Assembly (NCBI RefSeq): GCF_057098645.1
Contig: NZ_CM169472.1
Strand: one strand, 5' to 3'
Length of the DNA stretch: 64,000 nt
Notes under the pieces: model-generated
Told to the model about the DNA's origin: nothing
The model's input: only the letters and a program-made list of their open reading frames with translations
Database searches by the model: none
Program-made: the position numbers and the translations under genes
In this document: in pieces, positions 5,610 through 52,273 of the stretch
Layout: each line of letters opens with the position of its first letter
Position numbering within the stretch: position 1 is the stretch's first letter

Positions 5610-7094
5610 TTAATGCACTTCCAGCGGCCAGTGGACATAGCTCTGCCACTGGCTTTCCTGAGCAATAATCTCTTTACCCAGCGGATGTTGGGTTAGCCAA
5701 CCTTGCGGAAGCGTCAAGGTCAACAGTTCATGGTTAGCCTGTAATGTCATCTCTGGCACGAGATCGTCACGGCGACGGCTGGCAAAAATGATGGCCAGGC
5801 GTAGTAAACGGCAGAGTTGTTCTGCGACGCGCGGCGGTACGGCATTTTGCTGATGCAGCGATGAGAGATCGATCGGATTAGTCTGGTTGAGCAGTAGTGT
5901 CGCCAGCAATTTTTTCTGTGCGGGGGTAAAACCGGGAAGATCCAGATTACGCACCAGATAAGCAGCGTGTTGCGGCGCTTGTTTGAAGTCAACGCTCAGG
6001 CCGATTTCATGAAGCTGACAGGCGCTGATGAGCAAATCGCGGCTTATTGCTTCAAGATGCCATTCGTTTTCCACCTGATCGAAGAAGTTAGCCGCAACTT
6101 TGGCTACGCGCTGTGCCTGATCAATATCGATCATAAAGCGGCGTTGAATATTACGCAGCGTACGGCTGCGAATATCCTGCTCGACGGCCAGATGCAACAT
6201 GCCGTAGACCAGGCCTTCACGCAGCGCACCGCCCGCCAGGGTCATACACTGAATATTCAGTTCGGTAAAAATGGCGATCAGGATCGCCAGACCACTCGGG
6301 AACACTAACGCACGTTCCAGCGTCAGCCCGTCAATCTCTAGCTCTTCCAGCCGACCGCAATGAATGGCGCGTTGTTTCAGTTGCTGCAACTTTTCCAGGG
6401 TAATGCGTTCATCCATCCCCTGTGCCATCATGATTTCCTGTAACGCCTGCACGGTGCCGGAAGCACCAACGCACACTTTCCAGCCGTGATACCGTAATTC
6501 ATCGGCAACCGGACGTAACACTTCGCGTGCCGCTTTTTCTGCAGCATCAAAATTTTCCTGCCCCAGATTACGATCGGCAAAATAGCGTTCCAGCCAGGTG
6601 ACGCAGCCCATCGACAGGCTGAACAACGAGGTGGTTTGTGCACCCGTGCCGGTTACCAGTTCAGTACTGGCTCCGCCTATATCCACCACCAGGCGCTGAT
6701 CGGCACCACCAGTGGTGTGAGCAACGCCCTGATAAATCAGACGTGCTTCCTCTTCACCGCTGATCACCTGTACCGGACAACCGAGAATTTCCTGCGCTTT
6801 GGCAATAAAATCACCCGCATTGACGGCAAGGCGTAACGTCGCCGTAGCGACAACGCGAATTTGCGAGGGAGGAATATCTTGCAGACGTTCAGCAAACAGG
6901 CGCAGACATTGCCAACCGCGCTCCATTGCTTCATTGGAGAGGGCATTTTCGCTATTCAGGCCAGCAGCCAGACGCACTTTGCGTTTTATTCGCGTCAGCG
7001 TCTGGATGCTTCCAGCCACCTCGCGCACAACCAGCATATGAAAACTATTCGAACCGAGATCAATGGCTGCATACAGCGACGAGGTGGAACCCAT
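5610..7094 (-). CDS. gppA: guanosine pentaphosphate phosphohydrolase / exopolyphosphatase
   Basis: Ppx/GppA-family [26 protein letters not shown]... N-terminus. Confidence 0.93.
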
Positions 7095-7227: not shown

Positions 7228-8493
7228 TTAACCTGAACGACGACGATTACGCGGAGCGCCAGTACGACGCGGACCATTGCCTGTACGTGGGCGCGTGAGG
7301 CGCAGCGGTTTTGGCAGATCGGTCATCAATGTGTCCGGATTGTATTTGCTTACCGGAATTGAGTGACCAATATAGGTTTCAATAGCAGGCAAATTCAATG
7401 CATACTCTTCACACGCCAGGCTGATAGAGTGACCGCTTGCGCCTGCGCGACCTGTACGACCAATACGGTGAACGTAATCTTCACAGTCATCGGGTAAATC
7501 GTAGTTAAAGACGTGCGTCACTGCCGGAATATGCAAACCACGCGCGGCAACGTCGGTGGCAACCAGAATATCCAGATCGCCACGGGTAAATTCATCAAGA
7601 ATACGCAGACGTTTTTTCTGCGCGACATCGCCTGTCAACAAACCGACACGATGACCATCTGCCGCCAGGTGGCCCCAGATCTCTTCACAACGGTGTTTGG
7701 TATTGGCGAAAATAATCGCTCTGTCTGGCCACTCTTCTTCGATCAGCGTTTGCAGCAAACGCATTTTTTCTTCGTTAGAAGGGTAGAAAAGCTCTTCTTT
7801 AATACGGTGGCCCGTTTTCTGTTCCGGTTCCACTTCAATATATTCGGCATTGTTCATCTGCTCGAACGCCAGTTCACGTACCCGGTACGAAAGCGTGGCG
7901 GAGAACAGCATGTTGAGGCGCTGGTTTGCAGGCGGCATACGGCGGAACAGCCAGCGGATATCTTTAATAAAGCCCAGATCGTACATGCGATCGGCTTCGT
8001 CCAGTACCACTACCTGAATGGCACCGAGGTTAATGTGGTTCTGCTTGGCGTAGTCAATTAAACGACCCGTGGTGCCAATCAGAATGTCAACGCCGCTTTC
8101 CAGCACTTTCAGCTGTTTGTCGTAACCATCACCACCGTAAGCCAGACCCAGCTTCAGGCCGGTAGCTTCCGCCAGCGGTTCCGCATCGGCATGGATCTGC
8201 ACGGCAAGTTCACGCGTCGGTGCCATAATTAAGGCACGCGGCTGATTCACCTTGCGATCGGCAATCGCAGGATGAGAGAGAAGATAATGAAACGTTGACG
8301 TAAGAAACGCCATCGTTTTCCCGGTACCGGTTTGCGCCTGCCCGGCTACGTCACGACCCGCCAGCGTCAGCGGAAGGGCCAGTGCCTGAATGGGCGTACA
8401 GTTATGAAACCCTTTTTTTTCAAGGGCTTCTACAACCTTCGGATGCAGGGCGAAGTCGGAAAACTTCTGTTCTGTTAAATGTGTTTTGCTCAT
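7228..8493 (-). CDS. rhlB: ATP-dependent RNA helicase RhlB (degradosome DEAD-box helicase)
   Basis: 421-aa ORF with DEAD-box motifs ([12 protein letters not shown]), Arg-rich C-terminus. Confidence 0.95.
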
Positions 8494-45640: not shown

Positions 45641-46543
45641 TTACTTATCACATTTCTTCACATCAATATTCCAGTCAGCACCAGACGCAACCTGATGTTT
45701 CTGCGCGAAATTATCCATATTCAGCGCCACGGAAACATTCAATAAGCTGTTCAGATACACCATCGGCTGTCCTTCCGGCACATCGCCGAAGCTGGCGACA
45801 TACGGCATTTTCCCTTCGTATTTTTTCTCGGAACCTTCGGAAATGGTCACACATAACGTATCGTTGAGTTTGATTCCTGCCTGATTCAGCAACTCGTCGC
45901 TGATATTGCTCCAGACGTTACCGTACTGAATATCGAGAATCGGGATATTGCCCTTCACTTCACCTTTTGTCGCTTTCGCTTTCTGATAAGGCAGTTCGAC
46001 AACTTTTGCCGGAAGCTCTGGCCCCACCTGTTCGAACGTGATCGCTCCGGAAGCCAGGCGTGCACCGGTGTAGGCATATACATCGCGACCGTGGAAGGTA
46101 TATGACTTTTCGGAACCTTTCAGGCGGTTGGTTTTTTCATCGATTTGCCGGACGCTCTCAATACCCAGCGATTCCGCCACCAAAGTGAGCGTACCGTTAT
46201 CTGGTGAAACGAAGTATTGACCGTTTTTGGTTTTCAGCACTACCGATTTACGGTCTGTACCAACACCAGGATCGACCACACTGACAAATACCGAACCTTG
46301 CGGCCAGTAACTGGCGGTCTGATACAGGCGGTAAGCGCCTTCCCAGATGTTATACGGTGGAATTTCGTGTGTTAAATCAAATATTTTAAGATTATGGTCA
46401 ACACCGAATGCGACCCCTTTCATCGCCGAGACGGCACCATCTTTCAGGCTAAAATCAGTTTGTAAAATCAAAGCGTTATCCGCATAAGCGGATGATGATC
46501 CCAGACACGTTAATAAAAATAACGTTGCGAGCGTTTTTTTCAT
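45641..46543 (-). CDS. SAM hydroxide adenosyltransferase-family (DUF62, chlorinase/fluorinase-like fold) protein with a predicted N-terminal signal peptide
   Basis: 300-aa ORF; N-terminus MKKTLATLFLLTCLGSSSAYA; DUF62 hallmark blocks TDF, DLTHEIP, VVDPGVGT, PDNG. Confidence 0.7.
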   Translation of the reverse strand: MKKTLATLFLLTCLGSSSAYADNALILQTDFSLKDGAVSAMKGVAFGVDHNLKIFDLTHEIPPYNIWEGAYRLYQTASYWPQGSVFVSVVDPGVGTDRKSVVLKTKNGQYFVSPDNGTLTLVAESLGIESVRQIDEKTNRLKGSEKSYTFHGRDVYAYTGARLASGAITFEQVGPELPAKVVELPYQKAKATKGEVKGNIPILDIQYGNVWSNISDELLNQAGIKLNDTLCVTISEGSEKKYEGKMPYVASFGDVPEGQPMVYLNSLLNVSVALNMDNFAQKHQVASGADWNIDVKKCDK

Positions 46544-46625: not shown

Positions 46626-47390
46626 TTAACCTTTCCGCTCGACGGAAATCATGGTGACAAAAGGATAGCGTTGCCACGGGATTGCCCCGCCTTTCATATA
46701 CATATGTGAAATCGTGCCATCAAGATAAAGCAGCTGCTCAACGTTCAGTTTCGCTTTGGCATAACAGGCAAAATCATAAAAATTTGTCGCCTGCTGGCTC
46801 AACAAAAACACGGCATTCCCATGTTTATTAATCCCAACACCGTTACGAATTTTACGTGAGGCGACGTTGGGATGAATACGCGGATTAATTACACTGTTTT
46901 CCATCAACATTGGCCCTGACTGCACCGCAAACTGAATCTCTTTACTGGTTTTGAAGGCATCCAGACGAACGATGCCGACTTTATCTCCCGCGACATAAAA
47001 CACGCCGCCAGGACGGATAAAGAAATTCCCTTCACCTGAAGCGAGATTTAACGCCACCTTCTGCTGACCGTTTTCGATGTACAAACCGAGCGGCGCATAG
47101 CTTTCATCATAGATGCCGCCGTTCATCGCCATCTGCACCTGACCCTGACTATTCATATCCGCCAGCAGAGCATGTAAAGTTCCCCACGCTTCGCCATTGG
47201 CTTTTTGCCAGTACATTTTCACCCGCTCTGTTTGAGGATTAACGGTATACGCCTGTACGGTCAGCGTCGGATCTGAGAGTGCGCAATCATCAGCGGCAAC
47301 AGCAAACAAGGGAAGTAAGGTGAGGGTGAGAAAAATCCGTTTGAGATTCAAGGTGATCATTCCTTTACCAATGAGTAGCCGATGCGCCAT
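46626..47390 (-). CDS. yigE: DUF2233-family exported protein
   Basis: 254-aa ORF with signal peptide (LKRIFLTLTLLPLFAVAA), upstream of corA. Confidence 0.8.
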   Translation of the reverse strand: MAHRLLIGKGMITLNLKRIFLTLTLLPLFAVAADDCALSDPTLTVQAYTVNPQTERVKMYWQKANGEAWGTLHALLADMNSQGQVQMAMNGGIYDESYAPLGLYIENGQQKVALNLASGEGNFFIRPGGVFYVAGDKVGIVRLDAFKTSKEIQFAVQSGPMLMENSVINPRIHPNVASRKIRNGVGINKHGNAVFLLSQQATNFYDFACYAKAKLNVEQLLYLDGTISHMYMKGGAIPWQRYPFVTMISVERKG

Positions 47391-47604
47391 TATAGGTCCT
47401 GGATGTGGGATTTTTTTATCCTGTTAGCGACCTTGACGAGTACCAAAAAGCGCGAAGTTCAACTATTGTTCTGTGGTGTTCTGTTGCGTGTTGACGGCAA
47501 AATTTTGCTGGCGTAACATGCGCGCACGATCACTCTAAGAGGACATTCGCCTTGGACACACCCAGTAGATACTGGCTCACTATCCTGTCATCCAGGATCA
47601 ACTC

Positions 47605-47636
47605 CTAAGGCTATCCCTTTTTGCTGATAGCCTTAG
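47605..47636 (+). promoter_or_regulatory. perfect 11-bp stem-loop in the corA 5' leader (candidate attenuator structure)
   Basis: ctaaggctatc-cctttttgct-gatagccttag; a second hairpin lies at about 47583-47598. Confidence 0.45.
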
Positions 47637-47759
47637 CGGTTGTCAGCGACCTCAATTTTTCCCGTCGCGCTGAGTCAGGCTGTTTAATGGTCTGAAACCC
47701 AATTTGTTTCTGTGTGCCCACCGAACTGTCCGATATTTTAAGCATTGGGAGTCCCGGTC

Positions 47760-48710
47760 ATGCTGAGCGCATTTCAACTGGAAAATAACCGACTGACCCG
47801 GCTGGAAGTCGAAGAGTCACAACCCCTTGTAAATGCAGTATGGATTGATCTTGTCGAACCGGACGACGACGAGCGACTGCGCGTACAATCTGAACTTGGC
47901 CAGAGCCTGGCAACCCGCCCGGAACTGGAAGACATCGAAGCATCGGCACGTTTCTTTGAAGACGACGACGGCCTGCATATTCACTCCTTCTTCTTCTTTG
48001 AAGATGCGGAAGATCACGCCGGTAACTCCACTGTGGCATTTACCATCCGTGATGGTCGTCTGTTTACTCTGCGTGAGCGTGAACTGCCCGCTTTTCGTCT
48101 GTATCGTATGCGTGCCCGTAGCCAGTCGATGGTAGACGGTAACGCCTACGAGTTGCTGCTGGATTTGTTCGAAACCAAAATCGAACAGTTGGCAGATGAA
48201 ATTGAAAATATCTATAGCGACCTGGAGCAATTGAGCCGGGTGATTATGGAAGGGCATCAGGGCGATGAGTACGACGAGGCGCTCTCCACTCTGGCGGAAC
48301 TGGAAGATATCGGCTGGAAAGTTCGCCTGTGTCTGATGGATACCCAGCGCGCTCTCAACTTCCTGGTACGTAAAGCACGCTTACCGGGTGGGCAACTGGA
48401 GCAGGCGCGTGAAATCCTGCGAGATATCGAATCCCTGCTGCCGCATAACGAATCCCTGTTCCAGAAGGTGAACTTCCTGATGCAGGCGGCAATGGGTTTT
48501 ATCAACATCGAGCAGAACCGCATCATCAAAATTTTCTCGGTGGTATCCGTCGTGTTCCTGCCGCCAACGCTGGTTGCTTCCAGCTACGGGATGAACTTTG
48601 AGTTTATGCCAGAACTGAAGTGGAGTTTCGGCTACCCAGGCGCGATTATCTTTATGATCCTCGCGGGCCTGGCACCGTATCTGTACTTTAAGCGGAAGAA
48701 CTGGTTGTAA
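47760..48710 (+). CDS. corA: magnesium/cobalt transport protein CorA
   Basis: 316-aa product [31 protein letters not shown]... ending ...[41 protein letters not shown] (GMN motif). Confidence 0.96.
48574..48710 (+). repeat. direct repeat copy 1: corA 3' terminus (about 94-95% identical to 50277-50413)
   Basis: base-by-base alignment of the two stretches shows the same length, no indels and a handful of substitutions. Confidence 0.85.
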
Positions 48711-48717
48711 TATGAGT

Positions 48718-48745
48718 GCCGGATAAAGCTATTTTTTTATCCGGC
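48718..48745. terminator. hairpin terminator after corA, shared with the convergent islet gene
   Basis: gccggataaa-gctatttt-tttatccggc followed by a T-rich tract. Confidence 0.7.
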
Positions 48746-48751
48746 TTATTT

Positions 48752-49243
48752 CTAAAAATTGTCTTTTTTAAAGTCATGCGGATTGAAAACTCGCTCTATT
48801 TTATTTTCTTGTGTTAATTGATACTCAGTAAAATCGTTAATACCAATATGAGTGTTACGATAAGGGTATTCATTAATAACCATTAAGTAATTTTTCACGA
48901 TGCAATTATCATTGCTCTTAATTGTCGGGAAACAGTAGAGATCTTCATACGGCCCTTCGATATATTTTTTATAGTCAGTGAAGCCATTACCGATATCAAT
49001 GACATACCAGATATGCCAACTACCTTCTGGTAGGGGATGTTGATTTTTAATTTCATTCTGATGCTTCAGATACCAATTTATTTTATCGCTGTCAGTCCAT
49101 GGCAGATGATCAACGACCAGAAAGACTGAATTGCCAGCATCAGAGTATGTATACAAAATCTGTACAGGACGCAATGTCCATAAATTATAGATACAGCATA
49201 GAAGAAATAAACATAATATAATTTTCTGGCGTTTGCTTTTCAT
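48752..49243 (-). CDS. hypothetical membrane-anchored protein (N-terminal TM helix, extracytoplasmic domain); candidate partner of the upstream gene
   Basis: 163-aa ORF MKSKRQKIILCLFLLCCIYNLWTL...; very AT-rich codon usage; starts 27 bp after the upstream gene's stop. Confidence 0.6.
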   Translation of the reverse strand: MKSKRQKIILCLFLLCCIYNLWTLRPVQILYTYSDAGNSVFLVVDHLPWTDSDKINWYLKHQNEIKNQHPLPEGSWHIWYVIDIGNGFTDYKKYIEGPYEDLYCFPTIKSNDNCIVKNYLMVINEYPYRNTHIGINDFTEYQLTQENKIERVFNPHDFKKDNF

Positions 49244-49270
49244 AGATAATTTTCGATTCTTTCGATAGTG

Positions 49271-50084
49271 TTAAAATTGGTGAAAAAAGGTTTGAAAGCA
49301 AAGCCTTTATGCCGTTGTAAAAAGAACCATATGCGAAAAAATCTATATTTGCTGTAAGTCTTGTTTTTGATATCAGTTACATCAAGACCGAAGTGGTCCT
49401 GTGCTACAAAATGAATTGTCGCACTCCACCCTATAGCGTATTTTTGAAAGCTTAAAAGAGATATTTTTTGAGCTGAAATATCATGAACACTGATTCCTAA
49501 GCCATTAAAACTGTCCTCGAAGTCATTAAATTTATTTAGTCTTGATGAAAGTAATTTGGTTTTAATGCTTTGCAGGATAAGAGGTTGGTATCCTGTCGAG
49601 GGAGTTGAATTAATGCCATTTTCGATACATTCTTTGATTATTCGTATTGGACTATTATAACCATATTTATTTTTTCATGAAAAGATAAATTTAATTGTTG
49701 GCTATGAAAATTGCTGCCATTTCCATATCTAAAATGTTCAATCAGATCTTCGATAAGTGTTTTATATTGTCCAAAAAAGGAAAAAATTTTTGCTAGTTCT
49801 TTCATTTCTGCAAATAAAATATCAGTGCATTCACGTTGTGATATTTTTGTTCCGGAACTTGAGGCACTAAAAGCAACATTAATAGAACCTGGGCCAGGGA
49901 AATGGTATTTAATAAGTCTGTAAGGATCAACTTTTGCTGAGATATCGCTTAGGCCGAGTGAGAGAAAATCTTGTTCTACCATATCACCATATTGCATATC
50001 ATCAGCAGAATAATCATCAAATAAACTAATAGTTTCGAAAAGTGTACAGGGAATATTAATTGATGGAAGTAATGTGTTATTCAT
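49271..50084 (-). pseudogene. hypothetical protein of about 270 aa interrupted by a -1 frameshift at an A6 run (148-aa N-terminal ORF plus about 125 in-frame codons lacking any start codon)
   Basis: ORF 49638-50084 ends ...SFHEKINMVIIVQYE*; the next frame stays open from the overlap catgAAAAAAtaaatatgg down to the stop at 49271 and contains no ATG/GTG/TTG. Confidence 0.6.
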
Positions 50085-50209
50085 TTACATTTTCCTTGGT
50101 TATATTTAAGCTCAATATCAATTTGAGAACAAATGCTAGGGTAAAAAAAATTTAAAAAAGAAGTACACTTCACATTTTTATTACATTCCGAAGGGAATCT
50201 CGTTATTGA

Positions 50210-50413
50210 TTGGTTTTGCCCATTGTTAATAACAATATGTTGAATTTACCGATTAGGAAACTTTTTCCTACGCGGATTGCCTCCAGCTATGGGATGAACT
50301 TTGAGTTTATGCCAGAACTGAAGTGGAGTTTCGGCTACCCTGGCGCGATTATCTTTATGATCCTCGCGGGCCTGGCACCGCATCTGTACTTTAAGCGTAA
50401 GAACTGGCTGTAA
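50210..50413 (+). pseudogene. displaced corA 3' fragment (last ~46 codons, [11 protein letters not shown] end); not an independent gene
   Basis: 67-aa ORF whose C-terminal 45 residues equal the CorA C-terminus with one Y to H change; no corA N-terminal region upstream. Confidence 0.8.
50277..50413 (+). repeat. direct repeat copy 2 of the corA 3' terminus
   Basis: offset of exactly 1703 bp from copy 1. Confidence 0.85.
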
Positions 50414-50419
50414 CTATAC

Positions 50420-50462
50420 GATGTCGCTGTGAGTAAGTTAGTGTGCTGACAGCGACATTTTA
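50420..50462. terminator. hairpin terminator after the displaced corA 3' end, shared with the convergent DUF805 gene
   Basis: gatgtcgctgt...acagcgacat inverted repeat followed by tttag. Confidence 0.6.
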
Positions 50463-50824
50463 GCCGAGGGAATCGCAGATAACATAATTGTTGTGAATAA
50501 TATCCATGCCACGTTGAGTTGGACGCTTAATGACTCACATCTCACCCCTTCAATTGCTGCAGAGATAATAGAAAAAAGTGTTAAACCCAATGAAATCAAT
50601 ACAAAGTAGATTGCCTTACATCCAGTATCTCTTATTCTTTTTGCTCCAATATTGATATTTACATAGGTATTATTAATAACCAGAATAAAACTCAAAGCCA
50701 GGTTGATATCATTCAAAGTTATTAATATTGACCATGATGTTAATGTATAGATTATGAACTGAAAGCGTGATAAACGCTCAAGCCTGGATGGGTAGAATAT
50801 ATTTCTGATGGATGATTTGAACAT
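50438..50824 (-). CDS. DUF805-family small inner-membrane protein (yigF-like position)
   Basis: 128-aa ORF with 3-4 TM segments and a KRIRDTG motif resembling the DUF805 RRxHD signature; AT-rich. Confidence 0.6.
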   Translation of the reverse strand: MFKSSIRNIFYPSRLERLSRFQFIIYTLTSWSILITLNDINLALSFILVINNTYVNINIGAKRIRDTGCKAIYFVLISLGLTLFSIISAAIEGVRCESLSVQLNVAWILFTTIMLSAIPSAKMSLSAH

Positions 50825-50883
50825 TTTTTACATTGTTTTATATATATAATTGTTTTGAATATATATTACCTGAATTATGTGGT

Positions 50884-50901
50884 TTGCATATATATATGCA
50901 A
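50884..50901. promoter_or_regulatory. perfect 18-bp palindrome in the AT-rich divergent promoter region
   Basis: TTGCATATATATATGCAA reads identically on both strands. Confidence 0.5.
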
Positions 50902-51063
50902 TATAGCAGTCTTTGCATTGATAACTACACAGTAGTAATTTAGAGTGTGTAAGTTTTTATTGATAGGGTATATTTTAATTAAATATAATTGGAATGTATT
51001 TTTATTCTATAAACAATATATTGGGTGAATGGATTCTATATGGGAAATGGTAACTTTTGGTAG

Positions 51064-51339
51064 TTGTTCTTGGGTAAAGAACCTTACAGCAAAAAATCTG
51101 ATTTTGTTAAGGCATGGTTATTGTGGTGGGCTATTACCATCCTTGTTCTATTTATTTTAAGCCTGACTACGACATTAAATTTAAGAAGTATAGGTATAGG
51201 GTTAAGTTTTGGGTTTTGTCAAATCCTTGGTAGATATACGATGTCTCTAGGATGGAGTAAGTACTGGGGAGTTTTGGGGGTATTTCCTGTAACAAATATT
51301 GTTCTTTTTCTTATCTTAATTTTTTTCAAAAAAAGATAA
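51064..51339 (+). CDS. small hydrophobic inner-membrane protein (yigG-like position), TTG start
   Basis: 91-aa ORF with two or three TM segments, convergent with rarD and sharing a hairpin. Confidence 0.5.
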   Translation: MFLGKEPYSKKSDFVKAWLLWWAITILVLFILSLTTTLNLRSIGIGLSFGFCQILGRYTMSLGWSKYWGVLGVFPVTNIVLFLILIFFKKR

Positions 51340-51348
51340 ATAAGTCAG

Positions 51349-51376
51349 TGGGTAGGCTCTTTAAACGGCCTACCCA
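51349..51376. terminator. bidirectional hairpin between the small membrane gene and rarD
   Basis: gggtaggc-tctttaaacg-gcctaccc. Confidence 0.65.
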
Positions 51377-51385
51377 TGTTAATTC

Positions 51386-52273
51386 TTAACTTTTTCTACG
51401 CTGCGTATAAATCGCATCCATCACAAAAATTGCCAGCGCCACCCAAATAAAGGCGAAAGTCACCATCTTATCGGCACCCGGTTTTTCACCATAAAACGTC
51501 ACAGCCAGCAGGAACATCAGCGTCGGGCCAATGTACTGGAAAAAGCCTAACGTTGAGAGACGCAAGCGCGTGGCAGCGGCAGTAAAACACAACAGCGGTA
51601 CGGTAGTGACAATACCGGCGGCGATCAGCAGTAAATTCAGCGACATCGGGTTTTGCCCCATATGGCTGGTTGAGCTGTCGGCAATAGCAAACAGGTAAAT
51701 CGCCGCCACGGGCAGCAGCCACATGGTTTCAATTAACATGCCGGTTTGTGCTTCTACCGCAATCTTCTTGCGCACCAGGCCGTAGAAGGCAAAACTAAAT
51801 GCCAGCCCCAGCGCGATAATAGGTAGCGAACCAAAAGTCCACAGCTGGACCAACACGCCACATATCGCCAGAATCACCGCCAGCCATTGCATCCGGCGGA
51901 ATCGCTCGCCGAGGAAAATCATCCCCAGCACAATGTTCACCAGCGGGTTAATAAAGTAACCAAGGCTCGCTTCCAGCATATGGTGATTGTTCACAGCCCA
52001 GATAAACAGTAGCCAGTTGCCACCAATCAGCACGGCAGAGACTGCCAGCATAAAAATTTTCTGTGGCGTCTGAATCAGCGTTTTTAAATAGGACCACTGG
52101 CGGCAAATGCTCATCAGCACCACCATAAAGAAAAACGACCAGATCACGCGATGCGTCAGGATTTCATCGGCGGGCACGTAGTAAATCAACTTGAAGTACG
52201 CTGGGGCTATACCCCAAATAAAATAAGCGGCAAGAGCGAGTAATACGCCCTGCCGCGTTTGTTTTGCATCCAT
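51386..52273 (-). CDS. rarD: EamA/DMT-family transporter RarD
   Basis: 295-aa 10-TM protein MDAKQTRQGVLLALAAYFIWGIAPAYFKLIYYVPADEILTHRV... Confidence 0.92.
   Translation of the reverse strand: MDAKQTRQGVLLALAAYFIWGIAPAYFKLIYYVPADEILTHRVIWSFFFMVVLMSICRQWSYLKTLIQTPQKIFMLAVSAVLIGGNWLLFIWAVNNHHMLEASLGYFINPLVNIVLGMIFLGERFRRMQWLAVILAICGVLVQLWTFGSLPIIALGLAFSFAFYGLVRKKIAVEAQTGMLIETMWLLPVAAIYLFAIADSSTSHMGQNPMSLNLLLIAAGIVTTVPLLCFTAAATRLRLSTLGFFQYIGPTLMFLLAVTFYGEKPGADKMVTFAFIWVALAIFVMDAIYTQRRKS

What the first reader, a model, noticed from the sequence alone, without database searches (positions are those of the whole stretch)
48562..50462. 1.6-kb AT-rich islet at the corA 3' end, bracketed by an imperfect direct repeat of the corA terminus (e14/icd-like signature)
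The last ~137 bp of corA (48574-48710) recur at 50277-50413 with an exact 1703-bp offset, no indels and a handful of substitutions (for example TAT versus CAT, giving Y versus H). Weaker similarity extends about 12 bp further upstream. Copy 1 completes an intact corA. Copy 2 is a headless fragment followed by a hairpin terminator and the downstream membrane-protein genes. Between the copies lie two co-oriented minus-strand genes of sharply lower GC. This is the pattern left by elements that integrate into the 3' end of a protein-coding gene and supply a replacement 3' end, as e14 does at icd. No integrase is present, so it is either a decayed integrative element or a cassette exchanged by homologous recombination. 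corA is not a commonly cited integration hotspot.
Basis: seen in the sequence. Interest (0 to 1): 0.7.

Follow-up and report, generated by a model that had tools for sequence, protein, structure and literature searches.

The report
Toxin-immunity cassette beside duplicated corA end
A small two-gene cassette, belonging to a known family of bacterial toxin-and-antidote pairs, sits just after the E. coli magnesium transporter gene corA and is bracketed by a leftover copy of that gene's tail; it is a common, integrase-free insertion scar, not a decayed prophage-like element.

Summary
Window 48564-48710 (the end of an intact corA) recurs at 50267-50413: 147 nt, 9 mismatches, no indels, offset 1703. 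The copies enclose a 1,556-bp islet of 32% GC.

The islet holds a DUF943 gene and a DUF3289/YPO3983-family gene. Published work describes this family as a type VI secretion (T6SS) periplasm-acting effector with its immunity protein. In this window the effector carries a 4-bp frameshift; the immunity gene is intact.

Among 5,426 complete E. coli genomes:
- 2,635 carry the islet.
- 1,709 carry the islet|'corA junction, which is the same in all eleven junction-bearing loci read, suggesting a single origin.
- 931 have the islet without the corA duplicate. Salmonella subsp. arizonae and diarizonae show the same arrangement.
- K-12 has neither islet nor duplicate.

No integrase lies in or beside the cassette in any context examined. 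Copy 2 is a decaying pseudogene carrying K-12-type silent alleles; copy 1 carries donor-type alleles.

The best reading is one ancient event, homologous on the corA side and illegitimate on the other. The islet then spread by ordinary recombination. It can be lost by recombination between the repeats, as seen within O157:H7.

The e14/icd analogy fits the geometry but not the mechanism. This is an ordinary new member of a known kind; interest is modest.

The parts
47760..48710 (+). Intact corA (316 codons). Its last 147 nt are repeat copy 1.
   Evidence: ORF list. The same protein accession, WP_000947159.1, is annotated in every E. coli chromosomal locus fetched.
48564..48710 (+). Repeat copy 1: the functional corA 3' end, inferred to have arrived with the islet.
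   Evidence: It always encodes the wild-type C-terminus, and in most loci it carries the silent alleles TACGGG / CCAGGC seen in all islet-only (type C) genomes read.
48718..48745 (.). Hairpin between the convergent corA and DUF943 genes. It is the replacement terminator that comes with the islet.
   Evidence: Terminator scan; -15.6 kcal/mol, z = -3.8. A similar GCCGGAT...ATCCGGC hairpin follows corA in Salmonella subsp. arizonae and diarizonae.
48752..49243 (-). DUF943 gene (163 aa), intact. Predicted membrane-anchored periplasmic immunity protein.
   Evidence: Pfam PF06092, E = 1.1e-26. Identical to the O145 RM9872 protein. The family was shown to neutralise a DUF3289 toxin (PMC11148199).
49240..50084 (-). 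DUF3289 / YPO3983-family effector gene. In this window it is a pseudogene: a 4-bp slip deletion (one TATT unit, between 49663 and 49664) shifts the frame after about residue 140.
   Evidence: The intact 282-aa relative matches TIGR03034 (E = 1e-131) and PF11692 (E = 1.5e-84). Deletion and frames. The same frameshift is annotated in other genomes.
50085..50266 (.). Non-coding right end of the islet, upstream of the effector gene. It ends at the illegitimate junction ...GGAAACTTTTT|CCTACGCGG...
   Evidence: Clear alignment with type C (L003) ends at 50250; weak similarity continues to about 50266. The junction has the same structure in all eleven junction-bearing loci read, with one point substitution in O157:H7.
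50267..50413 (+). Repeat copy 2: the displaced, headless corA 3' end, now a decaying pseudogene.
   Evidence: It always begins PT(R/P)IA instead of PTLVA, and carries lineage-specific amino-acid changes (Y->H here). RefSeq annotates it as an incomplete CorA pseudogene.
50420..50457 (+). The original corA terminator hairpin, still attached to copy 2.
   Evidence: -22.5 kcal/mol, z = -4.8. The same sequence directly follows corA in islet-free genomes L006 and L038-L041.
50438..51385 (.). Older resident AT-rich cassette, in place of K-12 yigF-yigG: a YigG-like 128-aa ORF (50438-50824, minus) and a 91-aa ORF (51064-51339, plus), ending at the rarD terminator hairpin 51348-51377.
   Evidence: 32% GC. 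29% identity to YigG, E = 4e-5. 1,409 genomes have this cassette behind the junction.

Best explanation
The islet is an orphan type VI secretion effector-immunity cassette. It comprises a DUF3289 toxin, thought to act in the periplasm of target cells, and a DUF943 membrane-anchored immunity protein. It lies in the variable corA-rarD gap.

Inferred origin of the bracketing repeat: a single ancient recombination event.
1. The donor DNA had the arrangement corA-DUF943-DUF3289-rarD. That arrangement survives in 931 E. coli genomes and in Salmonella subsp. arizonae and diarizonae.
2. The donor DNA paired homologously within corA of a recipient that had a K-12-like corA end.
3. Its other end joined illegitimately to corA 147 nt before the stop. 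This could have happened by one-sided, homology-facilitated illegitimate recombination of a linear piece, or by circularisation followed by a single crossover.
4. As a result the incoming DNA supplied a new corA tail and terminator. The resident tail was pushed downstream as a headless fragment that is now decaying.

The composite locus then spread through E. coli by ordinary homologous recombination of its flanks.

Shown rather than inferred: the 147-bp repeats allow precise loss of the islet by homologous recombination.

In this window the toxin gene is frameshifted and the immunity gene is intact. The locus can therefore at most confer protection, not attack.
For: Cargo:
- Intact relatives match TIGR03034 (E = 1e-131) and PF11692 (E = 1.5e-84), and the partner matches PF06092 (E = 1e-26).
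- Published tests on other family members: periplasmic toxicity of a DUF3289 protein rescued by DUF943 (PMC11148199), and T6SS-dependent killing by an orphan DUF3289 effector (PMC12135965).

Insertion and polarity:
- K-12-type genomes lack both islet and duplicate.
- 300 genomes differ from the K-12 arrangement essentially by the inserted islet with its extra corA end.
- Copy 2 is contiguous with the native terminator and downstream genes. It carries the K-12-type silent alleles TATGGC and CCTGGC (with partial exceptions in the window/O145 and O157:H7 copies). Copy 1 mostly carries the type-C alleles TACGGG and CCAGGC.

Single origin: the junction has the same structure in all eleven junction-bearing loci read, apart from one point substitution in O157:H7. 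1,709 genomes match across it.

Donor form is old: Salmonella subsp. arizonae and diarizonae have corA-DUF943-DUF3289-rarD, collinear at 75-76% nucleotide identity, with no duplicate.

No integrase:
- The islet has two genes only.
- Cassettes in other genera sit between core genes (fadH-lsrK, a chemoreceptor gene and fbp, an autotransporter gene and rluF, and next to argS) with no integrase among the flanking genes identified.
- The cassette is absent from the phage collection.

Precedent: homology-facilitated illegitimate recombination and circularisation plus single crossover both occur in E. coli (PMC3240628). The former has been proposed for T6SS effector-immunity displacement in Vibrio cholerae (PMC5361080).
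Against: - No donor sequence was found that runs through the right-hand breakpoint, so microhomology at the illegitimate join could not be read.
- The first 15 nt of copy 2 carry four shared substitutions (two of them amino-acid changes). No functional corA read here has them, and the model does not explain them.
- Homology-facilitated illegitimate recombination is very rare in E. coli, about 3e-10 per recipient (PMC3240628).
- A site-specific event would also produce one shared junction, so that point does not discriminate between the models.
- The order of events (islet first inserted into a K-12-like locus, downstream cassette swapped later) rests on a few silent sites in 20 loci.
- T6SS delivery of this particular E. 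coli protein has never been tested.
- The published colicin M resemblance was not reproduced with my model, and I found no colicin M-type DxYD...HR motif.
Confidence: 0.7

Rival explanations
1. Decayed site-specific integrative element. An element with its own integrase targeted the corA 3' end, carried a replacement end in its attP, and later lost everything except two cargo genes.
For: - The geometry is exactly that of e14 at icd: an intact gene end on one side of the insert and a displaced headless end on the other.
- There is a single conserved junction.
- The insert is AT-rich.
Against: - No integrase or remnant of one appears in any of the 25 E. coli or 2 Salmonella chromosomal loci read.
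- The same cassette occupies the same gap without a duplicate in 931 E. coli genomes and in Salmonella subsp. arizonae and diarizonae.
- In other genera the cassette lies between various core genes without mobility genes.
- It is not present in the phage collection.
- No inverted repeats mark the islet ends.
Confidence: 0.07
2. RecA-driven shuttle cassette. Recombination between the two repeats releases a 1,703-bp circle (one corA end plus the islet). After transfer, the circle re-integrates by a single crossover into any corA, recreating the same junction each time. On this view the two junction-bearing forms (window-type downstream cassette and K-12-type yigFG downstream) are independent integrations.
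For: - Precise loss by repeat recombination is seen.
- The same junction lies in front of two different downstream cassettes, and the 3' alleles of copy 2 tend to follow the downstream haplotype.
- In E. coli, circularisation plus single crossover is commoner than illegitimate joining (PMC3240628).
Against: - A non-replicating 1.7-kb circle has no evident route between cells.
- Ordinary double crossovers in corA / copy 2 and rarD explain the same patterns.
- 147 bp of 94%-identical homology is a poor substrate.
- No circle has been observed.
Confidence: 0.12
3. The junction-bearing form is the older one in E. coli, and the islet-only form arose from it by deletion of the corA fragment and the downstream cassette.
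For: - The junction-bearing forms are commoner than the islet-only form (1,709 against 931).
- Deletions are frequent at this locus: an almost empty corA-rarD gap and repeat-mediated loss.
Against: - The deletion would have to start exactly at the islet|'corA junction and add about 45 nt of sequence found in neither other form.
- Salmonella subsp. arizonae and diarizonae have the islet-only arrangement.
- This rival would still leave the origin of the duplicate unexplained.
Confidence: 0.08
4. Assembly artefact or chance similarity.
For: None found.
Against: - 147 nt at 94% identity, with flanking identity at chance level.
- The junction is present in 1,709 independent complete genomes.
Confidence: 0.01

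Closest known systems
DUF3289 / DUF943 type VI secretion effector-immunity pairs (T6EC1-T6IC1 of Yersinia pseudotuberculosis; the orphan DUF3289 effector of Aeromonas jandaei; BtpeA-BtpiA of Bacteroides fragilis)
   Same: - Same Pfam and NCBIfam families.
- Same gene order, with the toxin gene followed by an immunity gene that has an N-terminal membrane anchor.
- Orphan location away from T6SS structural genes, as in A. jandaei.
   Different: - The E. coli protein is a bare 282-aa toxin domain with no PAAR or other delivery domain.
- It has not itself been tested.
- In this window it is frameshifted.
- The colicin M resemblance reported for the family was not reproduced here.
e14 prophage at icd (and similar elements that integrate into a gene's 3' end and carry a replacement end)
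   Same: An intact target gene completed by an incoming 3' end, with the displaced original 3' end left as a headless direct repeat on the far side of the insert.
   Different: - No integrase, excisionase or phage genes.
- The insert is only 1.56 kb.
- The same cassette also occurs at the same site without any duplicate.
- The loss event reconstructed here is a crossover inside the 147-bp repeat, as expected for homologous rather than site-specific recombination.
Sequential displacement of toxin-immunity modules (rhs and cdiA C-terminal displacement; T6SS immunity arrays in Vibrio cholerae, proposed to form by homology-facilitated illegitimate recombination)
   Same: - An incoming module uses a conserved upstream gene as a one-sided homology anchor.
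- The older material is pushed downstream and keeps a 3' fragment of the anchor gene.
- No integrase is involved.
   Different: - Here the anchor is an unrelated housekeeping gene (corA), not the toxin gene or a T6SS gene.
- What is displaced is a corA tail plus a YigG-like cassette, not an older immunity gene.

Membership tests
e14/icd-type site-specific integrative element | Element encodes an integrase (tyrosine or serine recombinase) | tested here: not met
   The islet has two genes, DUF943 and DUF3289. No integrase is annotated in any of the 25 E. coli chromosomal loci read, and none was found among the genes identified next to homologous cassettes in other genera.
e14/icd-type site-specific integrative element | Insert supplies a replacement 3' end of the target gene and leaves the displaced end as a direct repeat | tested here: met
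   Copy 1 completes corA; copy 2 stays attached to the native terminator.
e14/icd-type site-specific integrative element | Phage or conjugative-element cargo, or presence of the cassette on such elements elsewhere | tested here: not met
   No match in 50,697 phage records apart from a misfiled Salmonella chromosomal contig. In the plasmid collection, the only full-length matches are two chromosome-sized records; true plasmids hold only the first 98 nt, next to a captured corA.
e14/icd-type site-specific integrative element | Integrase-dependent, recA-independent excision as a circle | not testable with these tools
DUF3289/DUF943 T6SS effector-immunity pair | Effector matches PF11692 / TIGR03034 | tested here: met
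   PF11692 E = 1.5e-84; TIGR03034 438 bits against a cut-off of 156, using the intact O145 RM9872 allele, which differs from the window's gene only by the 4-bp deletion.
DUF3289/DUF943 T6SS effector-immunity pair | Adjacent downstream gene is DUF943 with an N-terminal membrane anchor | tested here: met
   PF06092 E = 1.1e-26. The gene overlaps the effector's stop by 4 nt. The N-terminus is MKSKRQKIILCLFLLCCIYNLW; the membrane anchor is read by eye, as no topology program was run.
DUF3289/DUF943 T6SS effector-immunity pair | Fold like a solved T6SS effector of the family | tested here: met
DUF3289/DUF943 T6SS effector-immunity pair | Intact effector reading frame in this window | tested here: not met
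   A 4-bp deletion at about 49663 shifts the frame after about residue 140.
DUF3289/DUF943 T6SS effector-immunity pair | T6SS-dependent secretion, and immunity-reversible toxicity of this E. coli pair | not testable with these tools
   Shown only for relatives (PMC11148199, PMC12135965).
Colicin M-like lipid II-degrading toxins | Colicin M fold and DxYD(x5)HR catalytic motif | tested here: inconclusive
Product of one-sided homologous plus illegitimate recombination | One junction inside homology, the other an illegitimate join (usually with microhomology) to non-homologous donor DNA | tested here: inconclusive
   On the left the donor-type sequence runs continuously from corA into the islet; on the right the islet abuts corA 147 nt before the stop. 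No donor sequence spanning the breakpoint was available, so microhomology could not be read.
Direct-repeat-flanked segment prone to deletion by homologous recombination | Natural derivatives in which one hybrid repeat remains and the flanks are otherwise unchanged | tested here: met

The most novel reading that the evidence does not exclude
Short duplicates of housekeeping-gene 3' ends may be a general, integrase-free vehicle for orphan toxin-immunity cassettes. The repeat would let the cassette leave as a small circle and re-enter any genome that has the same core gene by a single RecA crossover. Hints of this:
- The same junction lies ahead of two different downstream cassettes.
- Repeat-mediated loss occurs in O157:H7.
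- lsrK fragments lie beside DUF3289 cassettes in Enterobacter asburiae and Trabulsiella guamensis.

If true, corA-type scars would mark a recurrent mode of gene mobility rather than a one-off accident.
Probability: 0.1. Interest if true: 0.65.

Novelty: new member of a known kind. Interest (0 to 1): 0.3.

Why it matters
- It assigns a likely function, and a gain-and-loss history, to a small variable island present in about half of sequenced E. coli, including O157:H7, O145:H28, BL21, C, W and Nissle.
- It shows that an e14-like 'replacement 3' end' signature can arise without any integrase. That is a useful caution when such signatures are used to call integrative elements.
- It gives a clean natural example of a core-gene tail serving as the homology anchor when a toxin-immunity cassette was added next to an older cassette, and of the resulting repeat making the cassette losable.
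- Practically, strains differ in toxin state (intact, frameshifted or absent) while usually keeping the immunity gene. This may matter for competition between E. coli strains.

Tried and rejected
- Defence-system models (PADLOC): no hit for any of the four local proteins.
- Rfam on 47000-52000: nothing.
- Promoter scan: no more sites than in shuffled sequence.
- Inverted repeats at the islet ends: none.
- Literature search for the corA/rarD/yigF locus: swamped by 'coral' papers, so no description of this duplicate was found. The absence of a paper is therefore weak evidence.
- Colicin M relationship: not reproduced.
- A third local corA fragment in a genome reported with 3 matching places (H43): it is not at this locus.
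- The extra hit taken as a third copy in L025 was spurious.
- The apparent lsrK-end copies in Enterobacter asburiae at 5648-5766 are small repeated palindromic elements that overlap my ORF call, not gene fragments. Only 7400-7591, and possibly 5786-5880, are lsrK-derived.
- Three alignment calls failed on internal stop codons and were replaced.
Full report
**1. The observation**

- Window 48564-48710 and 50267-50413 form a gap-free direct repeat of 147 nt with 9 mismatches and a spacing of 1703. Identity falls to chance immediately outside it.
- Copy 1 is the end of an intact corA (47760-48710).
- Copy 2 has no upstream part of the gene.
- The 1,556 bp between the copies are 32% GC, against 52% for corA. 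They hold two minus-strand genes.
The larger gene has a 4-bp deletion here (one TATT unit of ATATTTATTTATTTTTT, at about 49663) that shifts its frame after about residue 140.

**2. What the islet encodes**

- The intact relative of the larger gene, from O145 RM9872, differs from the window's copy only by that deletion. It matches NCBIfam TIGR03034 (YPO3983 family, E = 1e-131) and Pfam DUF3289 (E = 1.5e-84) over its whole length.
- The smaller gene matches Pfam DUF943 (E = 1e-26) and begins with a hydrophobic anchor.
- Published work on other family members:
  - A DUF3289 domain from Yersinia pseudotuberculosis is toxic in the E. coli periplasm, causes cell rounding, and is neutralised by its DUF943 partner (PMC11148199).
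  - An orphan DUF3289 protein of Aeromonas jandaei is a T6SS-delivered antibacterial effector (PMC12135965).
- The colicin M resemblance claimed for the family did not appear in my searches, and I found no DxYD...HR motif. I leave that point open.
- No defence-system model matched.

**3. Population survey in 5,426 complete E. coli genomes**

| Locus form | Genomes |
|---|---|
| Islet present (all forms) | 2,635 |
| Islet-'corA junction present | 1,709 |
| ... junction followed by the window's AT-rich cassette (O157:H7, O145:H28, SE11 among those identified) | 1,409 |
| ... junction followed by K-12-type yigF-yigG (E. coli C, BL21-derived C41) | 300 |
| Islet with neither the corA duplicate nor yigFG (Nissle, the type strain ATCC 11775) | 931 |
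| K-12-type corA-yigF-yigG-rarD, no islet | about 38% of an evenly spaced sample |
| Window-type cassette directly after corA, no islet | 24 |

- Rare further forms are an almost empty gap and an IS200 insertion.
This is a real insertion polymorphism.

**4. Polarity and single origin**

- In all eleven junction-bearing loci read (the window, L001, L002, L005, L007, L025-L028, L036, L037) the right junction reads ...GGAAACTTTTT|CCTACGCGGATTGCCTCCAGC... O157:H7 alone has one substitution in it.
- Copy 1 encodes the wild-type CorA tail in every locus.
- Copy 2 always begins PT(R/P)IA instead of PTLVA. It has picked up different amino-acid changes in different lineages (Y->H, S->G, A->T, P->S, Y->D), so it is a decaying pseudogene.
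- Copy 2 is contiguous with the native corA terminator and downstream genes. It carries silent alleles typical of the K-12-type corA end (TATGGC, CCTGGC), with partial exceptions in the window/O145 and O157:H7 copies.
- Copy 1 mostly carries the alleles of islet-only genomes (TACGGG, CCAGGC).

**5. Where the islet came from**

- Salmonella enterica subsp. arizonae and diarizonae have rarD-DUF3289-DUF943-corA. This is collinear with the E. coli islet-only form at 75-76% nucleotide identity from corA into the effector gene, and it has a similar hairpin after corA. It has no yigFG and no corA duplicate.
- A subsp. houtenae contig also carries islet-like sequence at 70% identity.
- The islet-only arrangement is therefore old and is the plausible donor form.
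- In the E. coli islet-only form, homology with the window ends at 50250, with weak similarity continuing to about 50266. About 45 nt of unique sequence follow, and then the K-12-type yigG-rarD spacer.

**6. No integrase, in any context**

- The islet has only the two genes.
- In Lelliottia, Enterobacter, Trabulsiella, Franconibacter, Serratia and Erwinia, homologous cassettes sit between housekeeping genes. The sites identified are fadH-lsrK, a chemoreceptor gene and fbp, an autotransporter gene and rluF, and next to argS. The immediate neighbours include no integrase and no T6SS structural gene.
- These cassettes often come with extra DUF943 genes and DUF3289 3' fragments.
- lsrK fragments lie beside the cassettes in Enterobacter asburiae and Trabulsiella guamensis. 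This hints that flank-gene scars recur, at different genes and with different lengths, which does not suit a site-specific enzyme.
- The phage collection has no true hit.
- No inverted repeats mark the islet ends.

**7. The repeat is recombinationally active**

- Seven near-identical matches among the 24 islet-free, window-cassette genomes are four named O157:H7 plus three unnamed strains.
- That is the expected product of a crossover between the two repeats which removes the 1,703 bp.

**8. Mechanism**

The best-supported account is as follows.
1. One ancient event joined donor DNA of the islet-only type to a recipient. The join was homologous on the corA side and illegitimate on the other, to corA 147 nt before the stop.
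2. This happened either as a linear fragment or after circularisation followed by a single crossover. Both routes are documented in E. coli (PMC3240628). The first has been proposed for displacement of T6SS modules in Vibrio cholerae (PMC5361080).
3. Spread came afterwards, by ordinary recombination of the flanks.

What is shown:
- the repeat itself;
- the presence/absence polymorphism;
- the polarity of the two copies;
- the shared junction;
- the absence of an integrase;
- repeat-mediated loss.

What is inferred:
- the nature of the original join;
- the order of later cassette swaps;
- T6SS delivery of this particular protein.

What is unexplained: the cluster of four shared substitutions in the first 15 nt of copy 2.

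**9. Comparison and verdict**

- The geometry matches e14 at icd, but the defining integrase and phage content are absent. It is not a member of that class.
- It is a member of the DUF3289/DUF943 effector-immunity family by sequence and fold, with the toxin inactivated in this window.
- The way it was added resembles the displacement arrays of rhs, cdi and T6SS loci, except that a housekeeping gene serves as the anchor.
- I found no paper describing the corA duplicate. RefSeq already annotates it as a partial CorA pseudogene, and the cargo family is published.
- Overall: a new member of a known kind, of modest interest.

Noticed in passing
window 49655-49675 (gene 49240-50084, minus strand): The 4-bp slip (loss of one TATT unit) that frameshifts the DUF3289 gene here is also annotated as 'frameshifted' in two other complete genomes with different DUF943 alleles (2013C-3342, MEI005). 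Four further hits have the same match length. Another strain, FDAARGOS_536, has an internal stop. The toxin seems to be lost repeatedly while the immunity gene is kept.
   Followed up: partly
window 47110-48808; L042 1900-3598 (plasmid R27, NC_002305.1): IncHI1 plasmid R27 carries a 1,699-bp E. coli chromosomal piece at 98.7% identity: part of yigE, ysgD, a complete corA and the first 98 nt of the islet. It ends at what I recognise from memory as an IS1 terminal repeat. pHCM1 and about 50 other plasmids match the same 98 nt. The plasmid corA was therefore captured from an islet-bearing chromosome.
   Followed up: partly
window 50414-51385: The cassette behind copy 2 is also AT-rich (32% GC) and replaces K-12 yigF-yigG. 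Its 128-aa minus-strand ORF (50438-50824) is 29% identical to YigG but is left unannotated in the RefSeq loci read. A plus-strand ORF (51064-51339) is annotated as hypothetical. Their function is unknown.
   Followed up: partly
L013 7400-7591 and 5786-5880; L019 9003-9060: Fragments of the flanking core gene lsrK lie next to DUF3289-DUF943 cassettes in Enterobacter asburiae and Trabulsiella guamensis. In T. guamensis the fragment separates stacked cassettes, the same layout as at corA.
   Followed up: partly
L012 6383-8024; L014 7344-7918; L019 7777-8725; L011 6538-7530: Lelliottia and Trabulsiella carry arrays of extra DUF943 genes and DUF3289 C-terminal fragments behind a full cassette. These look like orphan-immunity arrays built by successive displacement.
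   Followed up: no
window 45641-46543: A 300-aa SAM hydrolase / halogenase-family gene between uvrD and yigE is present here and in many strains but absent from K-12-type loci (L004, L002). It is a second presence/absence polymorphism, 1.2 kb upstream of corA.
   Followed up: no
L008, L009: Two metagenome-bin contigs labelled 'uncultured Alistipes' and 'uncultured Clostridium' are E. coli DNA carrying this same locus (97-100% protein identity). They are evidently mis-binned.
   Followed up: no
L006 3312-3439; L035 2919-3377: Further forms of the corA-rarD gap exist. One is almost empty, at 128 bp, and keeps only the start of the window-type terminator region and the rarD-proximal hairpin. Another has an IS200C insertion just after corA.
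   Followed up: no
window 50267-50281: Four substitutions shared by all junction-bearing genomes are packed into the first 15 nt of copy 2; they give L->R (L->P in O157:H7) and V->I. This density is much higher than in the rest of the repeat and is unexplained. It may be a trace of the original illegitimate join.
   Followed up: partly
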